A stretch of 26,720 bases of DNA, taken from contig CALGDN010000140.1 in the NCBI GenBank assembly GCA_937884195.1, positions 1 to 26,720 of the forward strand, read 5' to 3'. Positions 1,989 to 15,697 of this stretch are shown in pieces; positions within the stretch are counted from its first letter, which is position 1; each line of letters begins with the position of its first letter. The stretch is from an uncultured bacterium (GTDB lineage: Bacteria; Omnitrophota; Gorgyraeia; Gorgyraeales; Gorgyraeaceae). The notes beneath the pieces were generated by a model, which made no database searches, was not told the origin of the DNA, and saw only the letters and a program-made list of their open reading frames with translations. A program made the position numbers and the translations under genes.

Positions 1989-2010
1989 TATTTGATATAG
2001 ATAGGTCACG

Positions 2011-3201
2011 TCAACTAAATTGTGTAAAATTCTTTATAGGGCGTTCCTTCCAGTTGTTATTTAAGTGAGTAAAGATAGCATATATGATCCTCTCACAGCT
2101 TTTAAGGTTAGTAAAGCAGGTAAATACCCTTGTCCTGCGCCTGACTTCTCTAAAAGATCTCTCTATGACATTGGTGGTACGTATCTTCTTCCAGTGATTC
2201 TTTGGGCATTGGAAGACATTCAGTAATTCCTCCAGATCTTTTTCAAGGCAGTGCACTGCACGAGGAGCTTTGTTGAACCATTTCTTCTTCCACGCCTTGA
2301 ATATAGATAAGGCCTGATATTTACTCTGGGCAAGGTATATATTCCTAGCGTCATTTATGCATTCATCCTGATAGATCTTTTTGAGATAATTTGATACGTT
2401 ACGGAGTTTGTGAGCCCAGCATCTCTGGAGAGGCACATGTGGATATACAATACCTAAGGCTGAGTGTAATCCTTTTGAGCCGTCTGTTGTTACGAGTTTA
2501 AGATTATCTCCTTTTAGGCCTCGGTTATAAAGATTATTAACTAGTCCTTCCCATGCGTCAAAGGATTCGCCTTTGGCCTGGGCGAAGGCTATTAAGCGGC
2601 GTTCTCCGAATACTGTTATGCCGTATGCTACGAGGATTTTTCTATTCCGGTATTTCCCGTTATATCGTATCTTAAGCGTTATAGCGTCTAGGAATAGATA
2701 CTGGTATTCGTCGAGTATAGGGGTTTTATGGAATTCTTTTACCTTTACATCTAATCTTCTGGTTATGCTTGATACTTTGGCGTGGGATACTTTTGTATCT
2801 AGTAGTTTGGATATTGCATCCCCAACTCTCCTTGTAGATACGCCTGCCAAGAATATATCCTGGATTAAATCTTCTACGATGTCTTCATAACGATGATAGC
2901 GTTTAAAAGCCCTGGTCCTGAACCCGGATGAACGCAACCTCAGAACCTTTATGTCATTTACTAATCCGAATTGAGTTACAAGGCTGCGTGTGTAGTGTCC
3001 GTTTCTGTAAAGCTCTTCAGTGTCTTTTTGTTCTTTCTCTTGTTCTATATAGAGTTCCAGGTCTGTTTTTACCGTAGATTCCATGAGTTCTTTTAAGAGG
3101 CTGCGCATATGAAGCCTTGTGTCTTGCCAAAAATCTTTATTTACTTCCTGCCACCATTCCTGTAAAATCTTACCTTGAGGCAGTAATCTGACGTTTTCCA
3201 T
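2011..3201 (-). CDS. IS256-family (Mutator-type DDE) transposase, 396 aa
   Basis: Motifs YRNGHYTRSL, GVSTRRV, YLFLDA, TDGSKGL, PLQRCWAHKLRN, IRTTNVIERSFREVRRR. SD AAGGAG upstream. Stop codon lies within the right IR. Confidence 0.95.
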   Translation of the reverse strand: MENVRLLPQGKILQEWWQEVNKDFWQDTRLHMRSLLKELMESTVKTDLELYIEQEKEQKDTEELYRNGHYTRSLVTQFGLVNDIKVLRLRSSGFRTRAFKRYHRYEDIVEDLIQDIFLAGVSTRRVGDAISKLLDTKVSHAKVSSITRRLDVKVKEFHKTPILDEYQYLFLDAITLKIRYNGKYRNRKILVAYGITVFGERRLIAFAQAKGESFDAWEGLVNNLYNRGLKGDNLKLVTTDGSKGLHSALGIVYPHVPLQRCWAHKLRNVSNYLKKIYQDECINDARNIYLAQSKYQALSIFKAWKKKWFNKAPRAVHCLEKDLEELLNVFQCPKNHWKKIRTTNVIERSFREVRRRTRVFTCFTNLKSCERIIYAIFTHLNNNWKERPIKNFTQFS

Positions 3202-3281
3202 AGGACGTACTCCTTTCCTTTTAAAAGCCTGGCACCATACCAGAGCTTTTGTTTTTGTATCCTAAAGGAAGGATACGTCCT
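3202..3281 (-). promoter_or_regulatory. Stem-loop in the transposase leader covering the RBS
   Basis: AGGACGTA(3202-3209)/TACGTCCT(3274-3281) plus an adjacent TCCTT/AAGGA pairing that includes the SD. Inner stem AAAAGC-CTGG/CCAG-GCTTTT. Confidence 0.55.
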
Positions 3282-3387
3282 TTTTATTTAATTTTCAATA
3301 AGAAATTACACAGTATATTTTACGTTACCTATAGATAGGTCTCCTTCTACAGACGTCCTGCAAGGAAATTTTAACTAGGTAGGTATA

Positions 3388-5115: not shown

Positions 5116-5688
5116 TCAATCTATTATGATCTCGTCAAGTGAGCGTTTTGGTACGTGGTGTATATCTGCCTGGTCACGCCAGTACTTAATGTCTCTGCCG
5201 CCTGGCCTGACGTTTTCAATCTTTACCTTTTCTCTGGGTATCCCCAGTGCGATAACGAGGAGTATTTCATAGCACAGAGGGATATTTAATCTTTTGCGCA
5301 GTTCGGGCCTGTTTATGAGCCCTATTATGCATCCGCCCAGGCCTTTTTCGGCAGCACCCAGCAGGATGTTTTGGCTGGCTATGCCATGGTCGCACCCAAA
5401 AGATTGAGATATCTCTTTGTCTCCAAGTATGATGATGTAGGCGGAAGGCCTCTGGCCTTCTGCCGGGCCTGGCCAGTCTTCAAGATAACCGGCCCAACTA
5501 AGGCACGGAAATATGAGGGCGTTTTTCTTTGGGTTACAGGAAAGGGTGTATTTTAATGGCTGCAGGTTAGCCGCTGACGGCCCCAGCCTTGCAAGGTCAA
5601 CAAGTCCCTTCAGCGTCTCAAGACTTATCGGTGTCTCTTGATAAAAACGCCTATAGCTCCTGCTCTTTAATATTAAATCTCTTATCAT
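5116..5688 (-). CDS. Nitroreductase family protein
   Basis: RSYRRF FMN-binding start, ARLGPSAANLQP, GIASQNILLGAAEKGLGGC, HHVPKRSLDE. Confidence 0.92.
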   Translation of the reverse strand: MIRDLILKSRSYRRFYQETPISLETLKGLVDLARLGPSAANLQPLKYTLSCNPKKNALIFPCLSWAGYLEDWPGPAEGQRPSAYIIILGDKEISQSFGCDHGIASQNILLGAAEKGLGGCIIGLINRPELRKRLNIPLCYEILLVIALGIPREKVKIENVRPGGRDIKYWRDQADIHHVPKRSLDEIIID

Positions 5689-5699
5689 TTCGTTTTTAT

Positions 5700-5977
5700 G
5701 TAGATTCCCACGTCCTCATGGACGCGGCTCGTGCTGTTACGAGCCTTGCCCGTCCCTCAAGCAGGGCAGCAGGGTGTTGAAGGACGTTCGGCTAAAAGAT
5801 ATGTTGTTTGTAGGGCTGGGCCTCACTCTTTTTTATTTTGACAGGCAGTCTTTTTAGTTGTTCGTTGATTATATGTTTCGCAAAATAAAGAAGCCTTCAA
5901 CACCCTGCTGCCCTGCTTGACAGACGAGCAAAGCTCGTAACAGTAAGAGCCGCATCCGTAAGGATGCGGGAATCTAC
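5700..5977. repeat. 278-bp fold-back element (REPIN/MITE-like) with 84-bp inverted arms and GTAG termini
   Basis: Arms 5700-5783 and 5894-5977 match at 73/84 positions, with the inner 27 bp perfect. Each arm has a sub-hairpin (CCGCATCC-GTAA-GGATGCGG at right). TTAT on both flanks (5696-5699, 5978-5981). The 110-nt core is homologous to 9887-9993. Confidence 0.8.
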
Positions 5978-5985
5978 TTATTTTA

Positions 5986-7833
5986 ATGGAGCATAATCTA
6001 AAGAGAGAATTAGGGTTATTGGATATATTTTGTGTGGCTACCGGGGCCATGATAAGTTCAGGTCTCTTTATCCTACCGGGCATTGCCTTTAGCAGGGTTG
6101 GACCCGCAGTTATCCTTTCCTATATCCTCGCCGGTATCTTATGCATCCCTACATTAATGAGTAATGCGGAGTTGATTACCGCGATGCCCAAGGCAGGCGG
6201 AGATTATTTTTATATAATGCGGGGTTTTGGGCCACTCTTAGGAACGCTGGCCGGGTTTAGCTCCTGGTTTTCTCTGAGTCTGAAAGGCGCCTTTGCCCTG
6301 GTAGGTATGGGGGCATATTTGAGTCTAGTAACCAGCCTCCCTATAAATGTTATTGCCATAGTCTGCTGCTTGATTTTTATTATCCTGAATCTCCTGGGTG
6401 TAAAAGAAGCAGGCAGGTTTCAGGTATTTTTGGTAATAGGCCTCATTGCTATACTTTTGCTTTATGTGATCTGGGGTTCAGGTTCCCTCAGGCCTATACA
6501 TTTTCAGCCGTTTTTTGAAAAGGGTATAGCATCGGTCTTTGCGACGGCAAGTTTCGTATTTATATCCTATGGCGGCTTAACCAAGATAGCGGCGTTGGCG
6601 GAAGAAACTAAAAATCCAGGGAGGAATTTGCCGCTAGGCATGATACTTTCTATTATAGTCACCTCTCTTATTTACGCTTTAGTTATTTTTGTAACCATAG
6701 GTGTTTTGGAACCGGGACGCCTCAGGGTAACCCTGATGCCTATATCGGAAGGGGCAGGGGCCTTTGGGGGAGACCGTTTAAGGATCTTAATAAGCATAGC
6801 TGCGCTCCTGGCATTTATTTCGACAGCGAATTCAGCTGTTATGACCGCCTCCAGGTATCCGCTTGGCATGAGCAAGGATAGACTTTTGCCAGGCTATTTC
6901 CAGAAGATAAGTTCGCGTTCAAAAACTCCTTATGTCTCTATCTTGTTTACCGGATTTTTTATGATCCTGGCCCTGGTATTCTTAAGGCTGGAGATATTGG
7001 TCAAGGTCGCCTCAAGTATATTAATCTTACTTTTTATATTTGCCAACCTTACTCTAATCTTATTCAGGGAGAGCAAAATCCTGAGTTATAGGCCTAAGTT
7101 CCACTCGCCTTTCTATCCCTATCTGCAAGTGATAGGGATACTGGGGGGGATATTTCTTTTGATTGAGATGGGGACATTTATAGTTTTCCTGACCATGGTT
7201 TTTCTCCTGGGCGGATTTACATGGTATAAGATATACGGTCAGAAAAGGGCGAGTCAGGATTCAGCACTTATATATATGTTGGAAAGATTGGTGGCCAGAG
7301 ACAGGGAATTTACCTCTGATAATCTGTTGGTAGAGCTTAAGGATATAGTTATCCAGAGAGATATGGTTAAGAAGGATAGGTTTTATAGGTTAATTGAAGA
7401 GGCGAAGGTCTTGGATCTGGAAAGGCCCTTAAGGATGGAGGATTTGTTTAGAGAGATCTCGACTATCCTGGGGGAAGAGTTAAGATTAGAACCCCGGATT
7501 TTATTCTCAGGATTTGTAGAGAGGGAGATAGAATCCAGCACCGTGCTTAGAAAGGGTCTCGCCATACCCCATATCGTTGTGGAAGGGAAGAATTCTTTTA
7601 AGATCCTACTGGTGAGGGCCCGTTCGGGGATTATCTTCCCGGGAGATAAACTGGCTCATATCATATTTATCCTTGTAGGTTCTCATGATGAAAGGAATCT
7701 CCACCTCAGGGTCCTGGCGGCCATAGCCCAGATTACACAAAACCCTGAATTCGACAAGAAATGGTTTGAGGCTCGGAATGCAGATGAGCTGAAAAACATC
7801 GTTCTCCTGACCGAGCGCCACCGTTTCCATTAG
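5986..7833 (+). CDS. APC-family amino acid permease fused to a C-terminal PTS EIIA (Fru/Mtl/Ntr-type) domain
   Basis: GAMISSGLFILPG TM1 motif, multiple hydrophobic helices, LAEETKNPGRNLP, and a C-terminal GLAIPH phospho-His motif. Confidence 0.9.
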   Translation: MEHNLKRELGLLDIFCVATGAMISSGLFILPGIAFSRVGPAVILSYILAGILCIPTLMSNAELITAMPKAGGDYFYIMRGFGPLLGTLAGFSSWFSLSLKGAFALVGMGAYLSLVTSLPINVIAIVCCLIFIILNLLGVKEAGRFQVFLVIGLIAILLLYVIWGSGSLRPIHFQPFFEKGIASVFATASFVFISYGGLTKIAALAEETKNPGRNLPLGMILSIIVTSLIYALVIFVTIGVLEPGRLRVTLMPISEGAGAFGGDRLRILISIAALLAFISTANSAVMTASRYPLGMSKDRLLPGYFQKISSRSKTPYVSILFTGFFMILALVFLRLEILVKVASSILILLFIFANLTLILFRESKILSYRPKFHSPFYPYLQVIGILGGIFLLIEMGTFIVFLTMVFLLGGFTWYKIYGQKRASQDSALIYMLERLVARDREFTSDNLLVELKDIVIQRDMVKKDRFYRLIEEAKVLDLERPLRMEDLFREISTILGEELRLEPRILFSGFVEREIESSTVLRKGLAIPHIVVEGKNSFKILLVRARSGIIFPGDKLAHIIFILVGSHDERNLHLRVLAAIAQITQNPEFDKKWFEARNADELKNIVLLTERHRFH

Positions 7834-7837
7834 CACT

Positions 7838-7877
7838 AACTTTACGCTTTTCCGACACGCATACAAGGTGTAAAGTT
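7838..7877. terminator. Possible bidirectional hairpin between convergent genes
   Basis: AACTTTACGC(7838-7847)/GTGTAAAGTT(7868-7877), one G.U pair, 20-nt loop. It fills the gap between two convergent stop codons. Confidence 0.3.
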
Positions 7878-7878
7878 T

Positions 7879-9774
7879 TTAGCTGCGGAGTTGGCGTTCT
7901 GCGTCGATGATATCCCTGTTTATGATATATATAGCCTTTTTTACCCTGTCCTTTAATGCCGTAGAGGCGGGCGTATCGAGTATTTCTCGCAGTATCTGAA
8001 CCGCCATCCTAAACTGCCTTATTATCTCTCCTTCATCCGCATCCGTATAACGCATGAGCCTGTCAAACTCCTCTTTTTTAAACCATGCCTCAACACAGGG
8101 CGAGAGATGATAATAATAGACCTTACTCAGTGGTTTGATGCCGAATCTTTTTTCAAGTCTCTGGATCTTGCCGAGCGTATTATCTGTAATGCTTGACAGG
8201 TTTCTGGCTGACCTGCTCAATCTTGGCAGGATGCTTCCTTTCCTGGGTTCAAATACAAGGGCAGTAGATAATATCCCGAGTTCAATTGCAGAGAGCCTTT
8301 CTAAGACACCTTTTTCGTAAAGCTCAGAGAGAGAAAGTTCATACCCGTAGACATTAGAAGCGAATATCCCTTTGTCGGTAAGCCTGTTTTTTCTTATATG
8401 GCCGAGTTCTTTAAGGATCTTTACCTTGTTGTGTAAAAGCTCAATCGCCTTTTTCCTTAGTTGTTTTTTTGCCTGGAAGTAATGAAACGATAATGGATAT
8501 ACCTCATACAGCCTTTCCTGGTATCTCTCATAGAGATTGAGTATGGTTGCATACGAGGCATTAAATCTGCTCCTGACCTTTTCCGGGGGGTCGTGGATTA
8601 TTCTATGTAATTCAGGAAAAGAGACATAATGGGGGTTTACCCTGCTGTATACAAAGCCCTCTCTGTCTATTCCGCGGCGCCCGGCCCTGCCTGCCATCTG
8701 GTAGAAGTCTCGTGTCTTGAGCGTAGCAAAGGAGGTGCCGTAAAACTTCCTCAACTCATCAAATATAACGGTTCTAGCGGGCATGTTTATGCCTAGCGCA
8801 AATGTCTCTGTCGTAAATATAACCTTGATCAACCTGCTTGTAAAGAGTCGCTCCACCACCTCTTTCAGCGTCGGAAGCATGCCTGCATGGTGATAAGCTG
8901 TCCCTCTCTCAACGAGAGGGATGAGAGACTGCGCGCTTCTGTCATTAACGAGGTCAAATCTTTTACAGAGCTTATTATAAAGGTCTCTTATCTTAGTCTT
9001 TTCTCCCTGATCCAAGAAATCAAATCTTAGCATTTCGTTTGCCAGGTATTCTGCTCTTTTTCGCCCGAATACAAAGTATATACAGGGGAGCTTATGGTTT
9101 TGGAAAAGATGTTTTATGAGTGATGAGGGTCTGTTGGGAGACCCGTGGCGTCGAAAACCATGTCTTTTATAGGCAATAAAATTAACCTTATGGAGGTCGT
9201 CCATGATATCTCCCTTCACCTGATAGAAAAAATGTAGAGGCACAGGGCGGTTGTTCTCTTTTATTATCCTGAGCGGGATTTTATGTATCGAGCGTAACCA
9301 GGAGGATATCTCGTCTATATTAGGTATAGTAGCCGAAAGTGCCAGCACCTTCATATGCGGGGGCAGGAATATAAAGGATTCCTCCCATACGGTCCCCCGT
9401 TCATAGTCATCAAGGTAATGGACCTCGTCAAAGATTATCCATGAGTAGCTGTTCAGATTGTCACTTTGCTCCAATACCTTATTGCGGAATATCTCTGTGG
9501 TCATTATGAGGATGGGGGCAGACGGATTGATGCTTACATCGCCGGTCAGGATGCCTACCTTTTCAGGGAAGTTCTCATGAAAATCGCGGAATTTCTGGTT
9601 TGAGAGGGCCTTTATGGGAGCGGTATAGATTACTCTTTTTTCTTTCTGAAGGCAATCCTTTATGATGTATTCTGCAATAATGGTTTTCCCTGCCCCTGTA
9701 GGTGCTGAGACTATAACAGAATAGCCGTCTTTAATGTAGTCAATAGCCTGTTTCTGAAAGGCGTCATATATCAT
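7879..9774 (-). CDS. Ski2/HelY-like DExH-box helicase (SF2) with DSHCT-like C-terminus
   Basis: APTGAGKT, YTAPIKALSNQK, DEVH, LSAT, HHAGMLP, TETFALGINMPA, QMAGRAGRRG. Start moved to ATG 9774 (MIYDAFQKQA) because the upstream extension runs into a repeat element. Confidence 0.9.
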   Translation of the reverse strand: MIYDAFQKQAIDYIKDGYSVIVSAPTGAGKTIIAEYIIKDCLQKEKRVIYTAPIKALSNQKFRDFHENFPEKVGILTGDVSINPSAPILIMTTEIFRNKVLEQSDNLNSYSWIIFDEVHYLDDYERGTVWEESFIFLPPHMKVLALSATIPNIDEISSWLRSIHKIPLRIIKENNRPVPLHFFYQVKGDIMDDLHKVNFIAYKRHGFRRHGSPNRPSSLIKHLFQNHKLPCIYFVFGRKRAEYLANEMLRFDFLDQGEKTKIRDLYNKLCKRFDLVNDRSAQSLIPLVERGTAYHHAGMLPTLKEVVERLFTSRLIKVIFTTETFALGINMPARTVIFDELRKFYGTSFATLKTRDFYQMAGRAGRRGIDREGFVYSRVNPHYVSFPELHRIIHDPPEKVRSRFNASYATILNLYERYQERLYEVYPLSFHYFQAKKQLRKKAIELLHNKVKILKELGHIRKNRLTDKGIFASNVYGYELSLSELYEKGVLERLSAIELGILSTALVFEPRKGSILPRLSRSARNLSSITDNTLGKIQRLEKRFGIKPLSKVYYYHLSPCVEAWFKKEEFDRLMRYTDADEGEIIRQFRMAVQILREILDTPASTALKDRVKKAIYIINRDIIDAERQLRS

Positions 9775-9860
9775 ATAAGCATTGTATACGATTAAAGCCG
9801 GAAAGTTAAGTAACTTTATAGTTTGAGGCGTATTATTTGTATAGTGTAACAGTGGTGCCC

Positions 9861-10019
9861 TTTCTCTCTCAGAGGCCCTCAAGAAGACGCTCGGCCAGGG
9901 TTGGTCTTTTGTAGATGTGGGCCTCGCTCCGTTTTATTTTGACAGGCAATCTTTTCAGTAGTTCATGATCTTCGGTTCCGCAAAATAAAGAGGCTTCTCG
10001 AGGGCCTCTGAGAGAGAAA
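9861..10019. repeat. 159-bp fold-back element: 26-bp arms around a core homologous to the 5700-5977 element
   Basis: TTTCTCTCTCAGAGGCCCTCAAGAAG (9861-9886) versus 9994-10019, 25/26 match. The core shares TGGGCCTC, TTTTATTTTGACAGGCA and CGCAAAATAAAGA with 5784-5893. Confidence 0.8.
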
Positions 10020-10075
10020 AGACGAGTGTATTTTCTGTTTGCAGTTTTCAGAAAAATAGAATTTAGAATTTGGAG

Positions 10076-15393: not shown

Positions 15394-15697
15394 TTCCATT
15401 CCCAGGTCACGCCTCGAGGGGCCTCTTTTAGCCGAGTGGGCACAGTGTCTTCCCTCAGGCAGAGCTTTCGGCACTGAAACGTTTCGCCGTCCGCTACGGT
15501 TTACGGTTCGTTCTTCTTTACGCCTATCGCTTTAGAACATGACCAGAACTCACCGTAACACCTTGCGGACATTTGCCGAAACGTTTCTAATGTGCCTTCA
15601 GCTCTGCCTGAGGGAAGACGAGCGAGGCTAAAAACGGAGCAAGATTGCCTCGCTGGGGCAATCTTGCGTCCCCTCGAGGCGTGACCTGGGAATGGAA
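15394..15697. repeat. 304-bp rod-like fold-back element
   Basis: Perfect 28-bp terminal IR (15394-15421/15670-15697), perfect 20-bp stem (15447-15466/15600-15619), further nested stems, and a side hairpin GCAAGATTGCC/GGCAATCTTGC. Confidence 0.85.

What the first reader, a model, noticed from the sequence alone, without database searches (positions are those of the whole stretch)
5700..10019. One conserved ~110-nt core enclosed by two unrelated inverted-repeat arm sets
Seen: 5784-5893 and 9887-9993 are clearly homologous (ACG.TCGGC...TTTGTAG...TGGGCCTC.CTC..TTTTATTTTGACAGGCA.TCTTTT.AGT.GTTC...CGCAAAATAAAGA.G) with an internal TTTATTTTG/CAAAATAAA stem. Copy 1 is closed by 84-bp arms ending ...GCAGGGTGTTGAAGG, and copy 2 by different 26-bp arms TTTCTCTCTCAGAGGCCCTC.AGAAG. 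Both have the same orientation and lie upstream of a minus-strand gene. Inference: closing-stem sequence is replaced while pairing is kept, which is expected of a structured ncRNA or ssDNA mobile unit with exchangeable termini, not of a simple MITE duplication. This is a candidate undescribed repeat or ncRNA family.
Basis: partly seen in the sequence, partly recalled or inferred. Interest (0 to 1): 0.72.

Follow-up and report, generated by a model that had tools for sequence, protein, structure and literature searches.

The report
Nested hairpin DNA repeats of Omnitrophota
The two look-alike 110-base cores are copies of a small non-coding hairpin repeat that has spread about 27 times through this uncultured Omnitrophota genome, always capping a long, perfectly paired stem whose sequence differs between copies; it behaves like mobile folded DNA rather than an RNA gene.

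Summary
The cores 5784-5893 and 9887-9993 are homologous and each is closed by its own inverted-repeat arms.

The core is one of about 27 copies in this 1.27-Mb MAG. It occurs in 18 of 38 genomes of the same family and in none of 147 other genomes sampled from the phylum.

It folds as a three-way junction: a closing stem P1 of 25-33 bp, a GGCC/GGCC hairpin, and a 13-bp T-rich/A-rich stem. Eleven of 12 modelled P1 pairs show compensated double changes.

The system is modular and nested. The core, a second core family and the outer "frame" are variants of one unit type. Each unit sits on a roughly 30-bp perfect stem, and units lie inside the stem apex of other units. One frame type carries three different cores.

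The evidence favours folded DNA over RNA:
- G·T (27) and A·C (29) mismatches are equally rare among 1702 stem positions.
- Orientation relative to neighbouring genes is random (23 vs 20).
- No promoter, terminator or Rfam family matches.

Sister species show empty sites, and other sites are shared across genera. So the element moves, yet persists.

No mobilising enzyme was identified. The scan had already met related nested hairpin repeats in other Omnitrophota genomes. Verdict: a new variant of the REP/REPIN/ERIC/NIME kind.

The parts
5700..5752 (+). Copy 1, outer module A (left). It starts with GTAG plus ATTCCC, followed by two small hairpins.
   Evidence: The same module recurs at 11 or more places in the genome at 80-100% identity. 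Its end resembles the reverse complement of the Neisseria NTS/dRS3 motif.
5753..5783 (+). Copy 1, P1 closing stem, 5' arm (31 nt).
   Evidence: The inner 14 nt are 87-100% conserved among 15 subfamily-1 copies. The next 7-9 nt differ between sub-lineages and are compensated on the other arm.
5784..5893 (+). Copy 1 core ('core-1'), a three-way junction cap. P2 is 5790-5793 with 5819-5822. P3 is 5828-5840 with 5881-5893. The motif TTTTGACAGGC is invariant.
   Evidence: Mean pairwise identity among 13 copies of 110 nt is 92%.
5894..5924 (+). Copy 1, P1 closing stem, 3' arm.
5925..5977 (+). Copy 1, outer module A' (inverted copy of A), ending ...GGGAATCTAC.
   Evidence: A related strain in run X3 matches the window only from 5978 onward, the first base after this end.
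9823..9860 (+). Copy 2, decayed left half of a module-C frame.
   Evidence: Compared by eye with the intact frames of C137 and C185. Weak.
9861..9886 (+). Copy 2, P1 closing stem, 5' arm (26 nt).
   Evidence: 25 Watson-Crick pairs plus 1 A.C.
9887..9993 (+). Copy 2 core (core-1, subfamily 2).
   Evidence: Its closest copy is C137:2574-2680 at 96% identity.
9994..10019 (+). Copy 2, P1 closing stem, 3' arm.
10020..10045 (+). Copy 2, decayed right half of a module-C frame (starts AGACGAG).
   Evidence: Compared with intact frames. Weak.
15394..15697 (+). Third member in the window: an intact module-C frame (28-bp outer stem, side hairpin, conserved internal loop) carrying a different, single-copy core (15468-15612).
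   Evidence: Its frame halves recur at 10 or more genome sites at 79-93% identity, whereas its core has no other copy.

Best explanation
The two cores are copies of a non-coding, non-autonomous repeat family that works as folded DNA. It belongs to an Omnitrophota superfamily of nested hairpin repeats.

Each unit is a roughly 105-125-nt three-way-junction 'cap' sitting on a perfect stem of about 30 bp. The stem is part of the element and travels with it. Only its pairing and its two ends are constrained, so its middle drifts and differs between lineages while staying complementary.

Units lie inside the stem apex of other units of the same type, so one core can wear different outer frames and one frame can carry different cores.

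Shown here:
- High copy number in the genome.
- Restriction to one bacterial family, where it is patchy.
- Strictly intergenic location.
- Compensated stem changes.
- Nested homology of the units.
- Empty sites in a sister species.
- Occupied sites shared across genera.
- Internal-deletion relics.
- Both core orientations inside the same frame.

Inferred:
- A structure-specific enzyme supplied in trans recognises the element as a single-stranded DNA fold. This follows from the conserved, asymmetric loops combined with variable stems. Candidates present in the genome are RAYT-like Y1 transposases and small GIY-YIG nucleases, but neither could be tied to the element.
- Arm complementarity is kept by selection on the fold, by arm-to-arm correction, or both.
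For: - Copy number and spread: about 27 core copies in the genome, hits in 18 of 38 family genomes with up to 31 per genome, and none in 147 other phylum genomes.
- Structure: 93.7% of cells are paired, 11 of 12 P1 pairs carry double changes, and the covariation score is 0.311 against 0.118 for shuffles, reached by 0 of 500.
- Stems: in 57 copies P1 is mostly 25-33 bp (three shorter, three extended through matching outer modules), with 1572 Watson-Crick pairs, 27 G.T, 29 A.C, 55 other mismatches and 19 gaps.
- Context: all copies are intergenic, and orientation relative to co-directional neighbours is 23 vs 20.
- Modularity: frames B..A' (8-13 copies), A..B' (3-6), A..A' (1) and B..B' (1) occur around the same core. 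Module C encloses core-1, core-2, a unique core-3, or almost nothing.
- Nested homology: core-1, core-2 and module C align segment by segment as one unit type.
- Mobility: none of 18+9 sites examined is shared between two species of one genus, and three G017/G001 sites are filled in one species and empty in the other.
- Persistence: orthologous filled sites occur across genera. In one same-genus pair, 4 of 5 arm differences form two compensated pairs, while the neighbouring intergenic DNA is unalignable.
- Decay: hairpin-deletion relics and a truncated orthologous copy were found.
- Precedent: compensatory changes in a transposing DNA hairpin are described for REPINs (PMC3116915).
Against: - No mobilising enzyme was identified. 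RAYT-like genes occur in 36 of 38 family genomes and small GIY-YIG genes in 37 of 38, so neither tracks the element, and both are flanked by different repeats.
- No target-site duplication or target motif was found.
- No excision or insertion intermediate was seen, because only low-depth contigs were available.
- The core is more conserved than neighbouring non-coding DNA at orthologous sites. This could mean a host function rather than selfish spread.
- Transcription could not be tested.
- The strand-asymmetric conserved loops would also fit an RNA.
Confidence: 0.6

Rival explanations
1. A host-kept structural or regulatory DNA site. The repeat arose from mobile DNA, but its cap is now maintained by the host as a binding or cleavage site. 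Possible roles include a hairpin-specific nuclease site modulating recombination or DNA uptake (as with Neisseria NTS/Ssn), or a nucleoid or gyrase site (as with BIMEs).
For: Across genera the core stays 75-85% identical while the arms diverge strongly. Orthologous copies are retained across genera, and the element is about 90% identical where the flanking intergenic DNA is unalignable. The end of module A resembles the NTS/dRS3 hairpin cut by Ssn nucleases. Two small GIY-YIG genes are present.
Against: Distribution within the family is patchy (18 of 38, and 3 of 13 in one genus), and insertion sites are species-specific. The published SRM search pattern is not enriched (6 hits vs 1-7 in shuffles). 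The GIY-YIG genes are bracketed by other repeats. There are many decayed copies.
Confidence: 0.18
2. A family of structured non-coding RNA genes: a roughly 170-nt RNA with a three-way junction, dispersed because it rides on, or is itself, a mobile element.
For: Two helices covary, and single-stranded segments are conserved (ACGYTCGGCC, TCRCTC, ACAGGCA). The side hairpin and internal loops are strand-asymmetric. Folding z-scores are strong.
Against: G.U-type pairs are no more frequent than A.C mismatches (1.6% vs 1.7% of stem positions), unlike known RNA helices. Orientation relative to neighbours is random. There is no conserved sigma-70-like promoter or intrinsic terminator. No Rfam match was found beyond generic long-hairpin hits far below threshold. 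Perfect stems of about 30 bp are unusual for stable bacterial RNAs.
Confidence: 0.12
3. An invertible DNA switch. The roughly 30-bp inverted arms let the core flip, changing a directional signal between neighbouring genes.
For: The same B..A' frame holds the core in both orientations (8-13 vs 3-6 copies). One subfamily-2 copy (C105) is inverted relative to its frame remnant. Arm homogeneity would follow from frequent recombination between the arms.
Against: No promoter or other directional signal was found in the core. The arms are not conserved in sequence, so a site-specific invertase is unlikely. Both orientations at a single locus were never seen. The strand-switch joints are explained by inverted repeats shared among copies.
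Confidence: 0.05

Closest known systems
REPINs / REP elements with RAYT transposases (Bertels & Rainey 2011, PMC3116915)
   Same: Extragenic, high-copy and non-coding. They fold as long hairpins in ssDNA, compensatory changes across the hairpin are common, and relic copies exist. Module A starts with GTAG followed by a short hairpin, like a REP. RAYT-like genes are present in the genome.
   Different: In REPINs the conserved parts are the two ends and the middle is a variable spacer. Here the conserved part is a central three-way junction and the stem varies. Most copies have unlike outer modules (B..A'). The two RAYT-like genes are flanked by other repeats, not by this element. The units nest inside one another.
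Neisseria dRS3/NTS hairpins, NIME mosaic elements and Ssn GIY-YIG ssDNA nucleases (Chenal et al. 2025, PMC11893778)
   Same: Dispersed hairpin repeats recognised as ssDNA, with mosaic arrangements of repeat blocks bounded by small hairpins. Module A's end (GTAG-ATTCCCGCG... / ...CGCGGGAATCTAC) is close to the NTS (reverse complement CYRG-ATTCCCGC). Small GIY-YIG genes are present.
   Different: The published SRM pattern is not enriched in this genome. Only 4 canonical ATTCCC..GGGAAT hairpins exist. The GIY-YIG genes carry their own unrelated terminal repeats. The core itself has no NTS likeness.
ERIC/IRU, Correia and BIME elements (from general knowledge of these families)
   Same: Imperfect palindromes of 100-300 bp between genes, with size variants produced by internal insertions or deletions, found in either orientation.
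   Different: Those families have sequence-conserved ends, and Correia and ERIC have TA-type target duplications. None has a conserved three-way-junction cap on a sequence-variable stem, or self-similar nesting.

Membership tests
REPIN / REP-RAYT system | REP unit: a conserved GTAG-type 5' tetranucleotide followed by a short imperfect palindrome | tested here: inconclusive
   Module A fits this (GTAG at 5700, then a hairpin). Module B, module C and the core do not.
REPIN / REP-RAYT system | Two inverted REPs forming one hairpin as the replicating unit | tested here: not met
   Only window copy 1 is A..A'. Between 8 and 13 copies are B..A' and 3-6 are A..B'.
REPIN / REP-RAYT system | A cognate RAYT gene flanked by the same repeats | tested here: not met
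   There are two RAYT-like genes (46.6 and 42.3 bits on Pfam Y1_Tnp, cut-off 23; 64-75 bits on NF047646, below its cut-off of 80). Each is flanked by other inverted repeats that have their own 3-8 copies. No A, B or C modules lie on those contigs.
REPIN / REP-RAYT system | Extragenic and multi-copy, with compensatory changes in the hairpin | tested here: met
Classical MITE (derived from a DDE transposon) | Terminal inverted repeats conserved in sequence and matching an autonomous IS | tested here: not met
   The arms differ between copies. The IS256-family element in the window has unrelated 32-nt ends. No IS110, TnpB or RT genes are present in the assembly, which is 81% complete.
Classical MITE (derived from a DDE transposon) | Target-site duplication | tested here: inconclusive
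   TTAT flanks copy 1 on both sides. No recurring duplication is seen at other copies, and the empty sites are too diverged to place the junction.
Classical MITE (derived from a DDE transposon) | Small, non-coding and multi-copy, with presence/absence between relatives | tested here: met
Structured ncRNA (any Rfam family) | A match to a curated covariance model | tested here: not met
   There are 0 hits at gathering score. The only matches are generic hairpins (for example MIR2646 at 66 bits against 245).
Structured ncRNA (general) | Helices tolerate G.U but not A.C on the transcribed strand | tested here: not met
   27 G.T vs 29 A.C in 1702 P1 positions.
Structured ncRNA (general) | A discrete transcript | not testable with these tools
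   No RNA run was listed for the locus or the core.
Ssn nuclease / SRM hairpin partnership | SRM motif enriched in the genome and flanking the ssn gene | tested here: not met
   The SRM pattern gives 6 hits against 1-7 in 10 shuffles. The small GIY-YIG genes at G000:C188 and C68 are flanked by different 26-30-bp repeats. Whether they belong to the Ssn clade was not tested.
Inverton (invertible promoter) | Inverted repeats flanking a promoter, with both orientations present at one locus | tested here: inconclusive
   No promoter-like site lies in the core. Both orientations are seen only across different loci.

The most novel reading that the evidence does not exclude
The unit may be a self-nesting single-stranded-DNA element that inserts into the apical loop of hairpins, including its own. 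It may also rebuild or correct one stem arm from the other at each move, which would explain perfect roughly 30-bp stems that differ between lineages without any wobble bias. This would be a transposition or repair route not described for bacterial repeats, possibly driven by the RAYT-like or GIY-YIG enzymes that are abundant in this family. Alternatively, the cap could be a host-maintained DNA signal conserved across genera.
Probability: 0.15. Interest if true: 0.8.

Novelty: new variant of a known kind. Interest (0 to 1): 0.45.

Why it matters
Omnitrophota are uncultured, small-celled bacteria with compact genomes, yet this family devotes on the order of 1% of a 1.3-Mb assembly (my rough estimate) to these repeats. 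The repeats break assemblies, since many copies lie near contig ends and three abut sequencing adapters.

The family gives a clean natural data set of more than 100 copies in which a DNA fold, not a sequence, is conserved. It could be used to look for the structure-specific enzyme that reads it.

The work also shows that covariation alone is not proof of an RNA. The wobble-symmetry test separates the two readings.

If the nesting and arm-correction behaviour proves real, it would add a new mode of spread to the REP/REPIN world.

Tried and rejected
- Rfam, at gathering score and at permissive thresholds, on all three window elements: nothing real.
- tRNA/tmRNA scan: none.
- RAYT partnership: the genes are present but flanked by other repeats and occur in almost every family genome, so they do not discriminate.
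- GIY-YIG/Ssn partnership: the same problem, and the SRM pattern is not enriched.
- RT, IS110 and TnpB: not found in the 81%-complete assembly.
- IS256-family transposase in the window: its ends are unrelated.
- Promoter or terminator in the core: none conserved. The invariant TTGACA has no partner -10 box, and the minus-strand TATAAT of copy 1 is absent from subfamily 2.
- Cis-regulatory RNA: rejected because orientation is random.
- Transcription: no RNA run could be listed.
- Reads laid on the window: depth was too low. The strand-switch joints are explained by repeats, and only the X3 break at 5978 was of use.
The other pairs are unalignable.
- In-place flip at an orthologous site (C105 vs L097): the frame remnant in C105 is only 8-13 nt, so this is suggestive only.
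- Distance to the neighbouring gene's stop or start: an apparent left-side bias is explained by the longer right half of the frame, so it was dropped.


Full report
**1. The observation**

- Cores 5784-5893 and 9887-9993 are homologous: 81-84% identity over 57-88 nt, and E = 2e-16 inside the genome.
- Copy 1 is closed by 87-nt arms that are 86% complementary.
- Copy 2 is closed by 26-nt arms with 25 Watson-Crick pairs.
- Both fold far better than shuffled sequence, whether treated as RNA or as DNA.
- The junction of copy 1 is reproduced by an independent ENA contig at 259/260 identity. Copy 2 is spanned by a 1087-nt contig of a public run.

**2. It is a repeat family**

The assembly is a 1.27-Mb, 254-contig, 81%-complete MAG, and the window is contig C140.

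The core has about 27 copies:
- about 16 of subfamily 1, at 91-97% identity to copy 1;
- 5 of subfamily 2, the type of copy 2 (C137, C105, C160 and C185 carry the others);
- several truncated copies.

A covariance model built from 29 copies (R1) finds the core in 18 of 38 genomes of the same family, with up to 31 hits per genome. It finds the core in none of 147 other genomes sampled across the phylum (stricter filters were used there). Within the family the distribution is patchy, for example 3 of 13 genomes in one genus.

**3. Anatomy of the core**

Alignments and pair counts support a three-way junction.
- P1 is the closing stem.
- P2 is a GGCC/GGCC stem capping a variable hairpin of 20-45 nt.
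- P3 is a 13-bp stem (CTYNTTTTNTTTTG with CAAAANAAANNNG) around a loop of about 40 nt that begins with the invariant ACAGGCA.

In numbers: 93.7% of cells pair, against 82.9% in shuffles. Eleven of 12 modelled P1 pairs and one P3 pair carry double changes. In relatives outside that model alignment, the central base pair of the T-run also covaries (A-T, G-C, C-G). The covariation score is 0.311 against 0.118, reached by 0 of 500 shuffles. Sliding the partner by one column drops pairing to 57-63%.

Across 57 full copies from 10 genomes, P1 is mostly 25-33 bp. Three copies are shorter (13-17 bp). Three extend further because matching outer modules continue the pairing. The stems differ greatly in sequence but keep a common pattern (TCYYTC..CAG..AARRAG), so they are diverged homologues rather than unrelated sequences.

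Among 15 subfamily-1 copies:
- the core is 92% identical;
- the inner 14 bp of the stem are 87-100% identical;
- the next 7-9 bp are only 32-54% identical;
- sub-lineages differ at 3-4 stem positions that are mostly matched by the complementary change on the other arm.

**4. Modular and nested build**

The whole-copy alignment shows that subfamily-1 cores sit in outer modules of two types. Module A starts with GTAG-ATTCCC and contains two small hairpins. Module B starts with TTTAATC and contains a CCCCGCC hairpin.

Relative to the core, the arrangements are B..A' (8 clear copies, up to 13), A..B' (3 to 6), A..A' (window copy 1 only) and B..B' (one copy). The 84-87-bp arms of copy 1 are therefore an exception.

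Subfamily-2 cores sit in a third frame, module C. It consists of:
- a 28-33-bp outer stem that differs at each site;
- an 8-bp covarying stem;
- a conserved asymmetric internal loop (GAGYGGGCAYRGTG opposite CGAGCGA);
- a side hairpin on one strand only, with the conserved loop CTCGCTGGGG.

The same module C also encloses other contents:
- a second core family, core-2, at 6 or more sites;
- a unique 145-nt core in the window's third fold-back, 15394-15697;
- in one case almost nothing.

Laid side by side, core-1, core-2 and module C read on its other strand share one plan. The plan runs ACG, side hairpin, YGCTCCG, 5' strand of a T-rich stem, a variable middle, the 3' strand of that stem, then GAGG.

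In module C and core-2 the middle is TCGCTCG, a hairpin, then CACCRTGCCCRC. In core-1 the middle is an unpaired stretch of about 40 nt.

So they are variants of one unit type. Each unit stands on a perfect stem of about 30 bp. Units lie in the apex of that hairpin in other units, mostly in the opposite orientation. Copy 2 of the window has decayed remnants of such a frame on both sides.

Relics in which the cap and the upper stem are deleted, leaving a short perfect hairpin between the outer modules, are common. This is what replication slippage across a palindrome would produce.

**5. DNA or RNA?**

Four tests speak against a functional RNA.
- Wobble symmetry. In 1702 P1 positions there are 1572 Watson-Crick pairs, 27 G.T and 29 A.C. 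An RNA helix under selection would be rich in G.U and poor in A.C on the transcribed strand. Here both look like fresh, unfiltered transitions.
- Orientation. All 57 copies are intergenic, and orientation relative to co-directional neighbours is 23 against 20.
- Signals. No sigma-70-like promoter or intrinsic terminator is conserved. The invariant TTGACA has no -10 partner.
- Rfam has no family for it.

Expression itself could not be tested, because no RNA run holds the locus or the core.

Against a duplex-DNA transposon end: the arms are not conserved in sequence, while the loops and the one-sided hairpin are conserved and asymmetric. Together this points to recognition of a folded single strand. 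That last step is inference.

**6. It moves, yet it lasts**

Evidence for movement:
- Flanks of 18 copies in G017 and 9 in G001, two species of one genus, share no site in the flank comparison.
- Targeted searches found three sites filled in one species and empty in the other (L054, L056, L072). They also found one shared site where the G017 copy has lost its 3' half.
- In the L054 pair the 32-bp arms are absent from the empty site, so the arms arrive with the element.
- A vent-metagenome strain 98.7% identical in the permease gene matches the window only from 5978, the first base after the element's CTAC end.

Evidence for persistence:
- Three sites are occupied in two genomes each, two of them across genera.
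- In the same-genus pair L100/L108 the element is about 90% identical while the next intergenic DNA cannot be aligned.
- In that pair, 4 of the 5 arm differences form two compensated pairs.
- At the site shared by G000:C199 and G017, the cores are alike but the stems and frames are entirely different. This means either stem replacement or repeated use of one site.

**7. Who moves it?**

This remains unknown.
- RAYT-like genes. The genome has two. Each is bracketed by its own inverted repeats, which have their own small copy sets. Y1 genes occur in 36 of 38 family genomes, so they do not track the element. One RAYT gene in G017 lies 1.6 kb from a copy but again has its own ends.
- Small GIY-YIG genes. 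Following a lead from an earlier scan note, these were checked. They occur in 37 of 38 genomes. The two in this genome carry unrelated 26-30-bp terminal repeats.
- NTS/Ssn likeness. The end of module A is close to the Neisseria NTS/dRS3 hairpin that Ssn nucleases cut as ssDNA (PMC11893778). However, the published SRM pattern is not enriched here (6 hits against 1-7 in shuffles), and only four canonical ATTCCC..GGGAAT hairpins exist.
- Other enzymes. No RT, IS110 or TnpB gene was found. The IS256-family element in the window has unrelated ends.

**8. Most likely mechanism**

This is a non-autonomous element that spreads and is maintained as a folded single strand of DNA. The conserved cap and junction loops would be the recognition surface. 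The stem needs only to pair, so it drifts between lineages and stays complementary through selection on the fold, through correction of one arm against the other, or both.

Hairpin apices of existing units are frequent landing sites, which builds the nested, combinatorial architecture. Slippage across the palindrome erodes copies.

- Shown here: the family, the fold, the compensation, the nesting, gain and loss between species, retention across genera, and both core orientations in one frame type.
- Inferred: the single-stranded form, action of an enzyme in trans, and the cause of arm homogeneity.

I put this at about 0.6. The rivals are a host-kept DNA signal (0.18), an RNA gene family (0.12) and an invertible switch (0.05).

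**9. Comparison and novelty**

The closest known kinds are REPINs, where compensatory hairpin changes are documented (PMC3116915); the Neisseria dRS3/NTS/NIME system; and the ERIC, Correia and BIME elements.

This family differs in three ways. It has a conserved central three-way junction on a sequence-variable stem. It shows self-similar nesting. It lacks a flanking cognate transposase.

One literature search for such repeats in Omnitrophota found nothing relevant.

Earlier notes of this scan describe related nested or 'capped' hairpin repeats in other Omnitrophota genomes. The kind is therefore not new to the scan, although this core family is specific to one bacterial family. I rate it a new variant of a known kind, of moderate interest.

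Noticed in passing
window 15394-15697: A third fold-back (304 nt) with an intact module-C frame: 28-bp perfect outer stem, one-sided branch hairpin and conserved internal loop. It carries a 145-nt core that has no other copy in the genome.
   Followed up: yes
G000 contigs C160 (start), C30 (end), C85 (start); loci L021, L003, L026: Illumina adapter sequence is assembled directly against repeat copies at three contig ends. This is adapter contamination where the repeat breaks the assembly graph. The adapter joins inside the element at a different position in each case.
   Followed up: partly
G000:C188:173-456 and G000:C68:about 1600-1900: Two tiny GIY-YIG nuclease genes (about 76 aa), each bracketed by 26-30-bp inverted repeats and sharing flanks (…CCGAATTTGACCCC / GGGGTTTAATTCGCA…). 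A similar unit lies 250 bp from a core copy in G052 (L107). They may be a separate miniature mobile unit.
   Followed up: partly
L049 (G000:C171) 1285-1908 and L050 (G000:C197) 1381-1875: Two RAYT-like Y1 transposase genes, each flanked by its own inverted repeats that recur 3-8 times in the genome, including relics of RAYT 5' ends (C242, C80).
   Followed up: partly
G000:C33:2776, C217:76, C253:934 and 981: Four canonical dRS3/NTS-like hairpins (TCATTCCCGCG-loop-GCGGGAATC). Two of them form an inverted doublet on C253.
   Followed up: no
window 1996-3337: An IS256 (Mutator) family insertion sequence: a 396-aa transposase (2011-3201, minus strand) with 32-nt imperfect terminal inverted repeats.
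   Followed up: partly
window 9781-9882: The longest frame of the Ski2-like DEAD/DSHCT helicase starts at a TTG (9882) inside the repeat's left arm. A promoter-like site at 9809-9781 (minus strand) suggests the real start lies further in.
   Followed up: no
window 5689-5985: Copy 1 fills the whole spacer between the divergent nitroreductase (ATG at 5688) and permease-EIIA (ATG at 5986) genes, leaving 11 and 8 bp. No sigma-70-like promoter is detectable in it, so how these genes are transcribed is unclear.
   Followed up: partly
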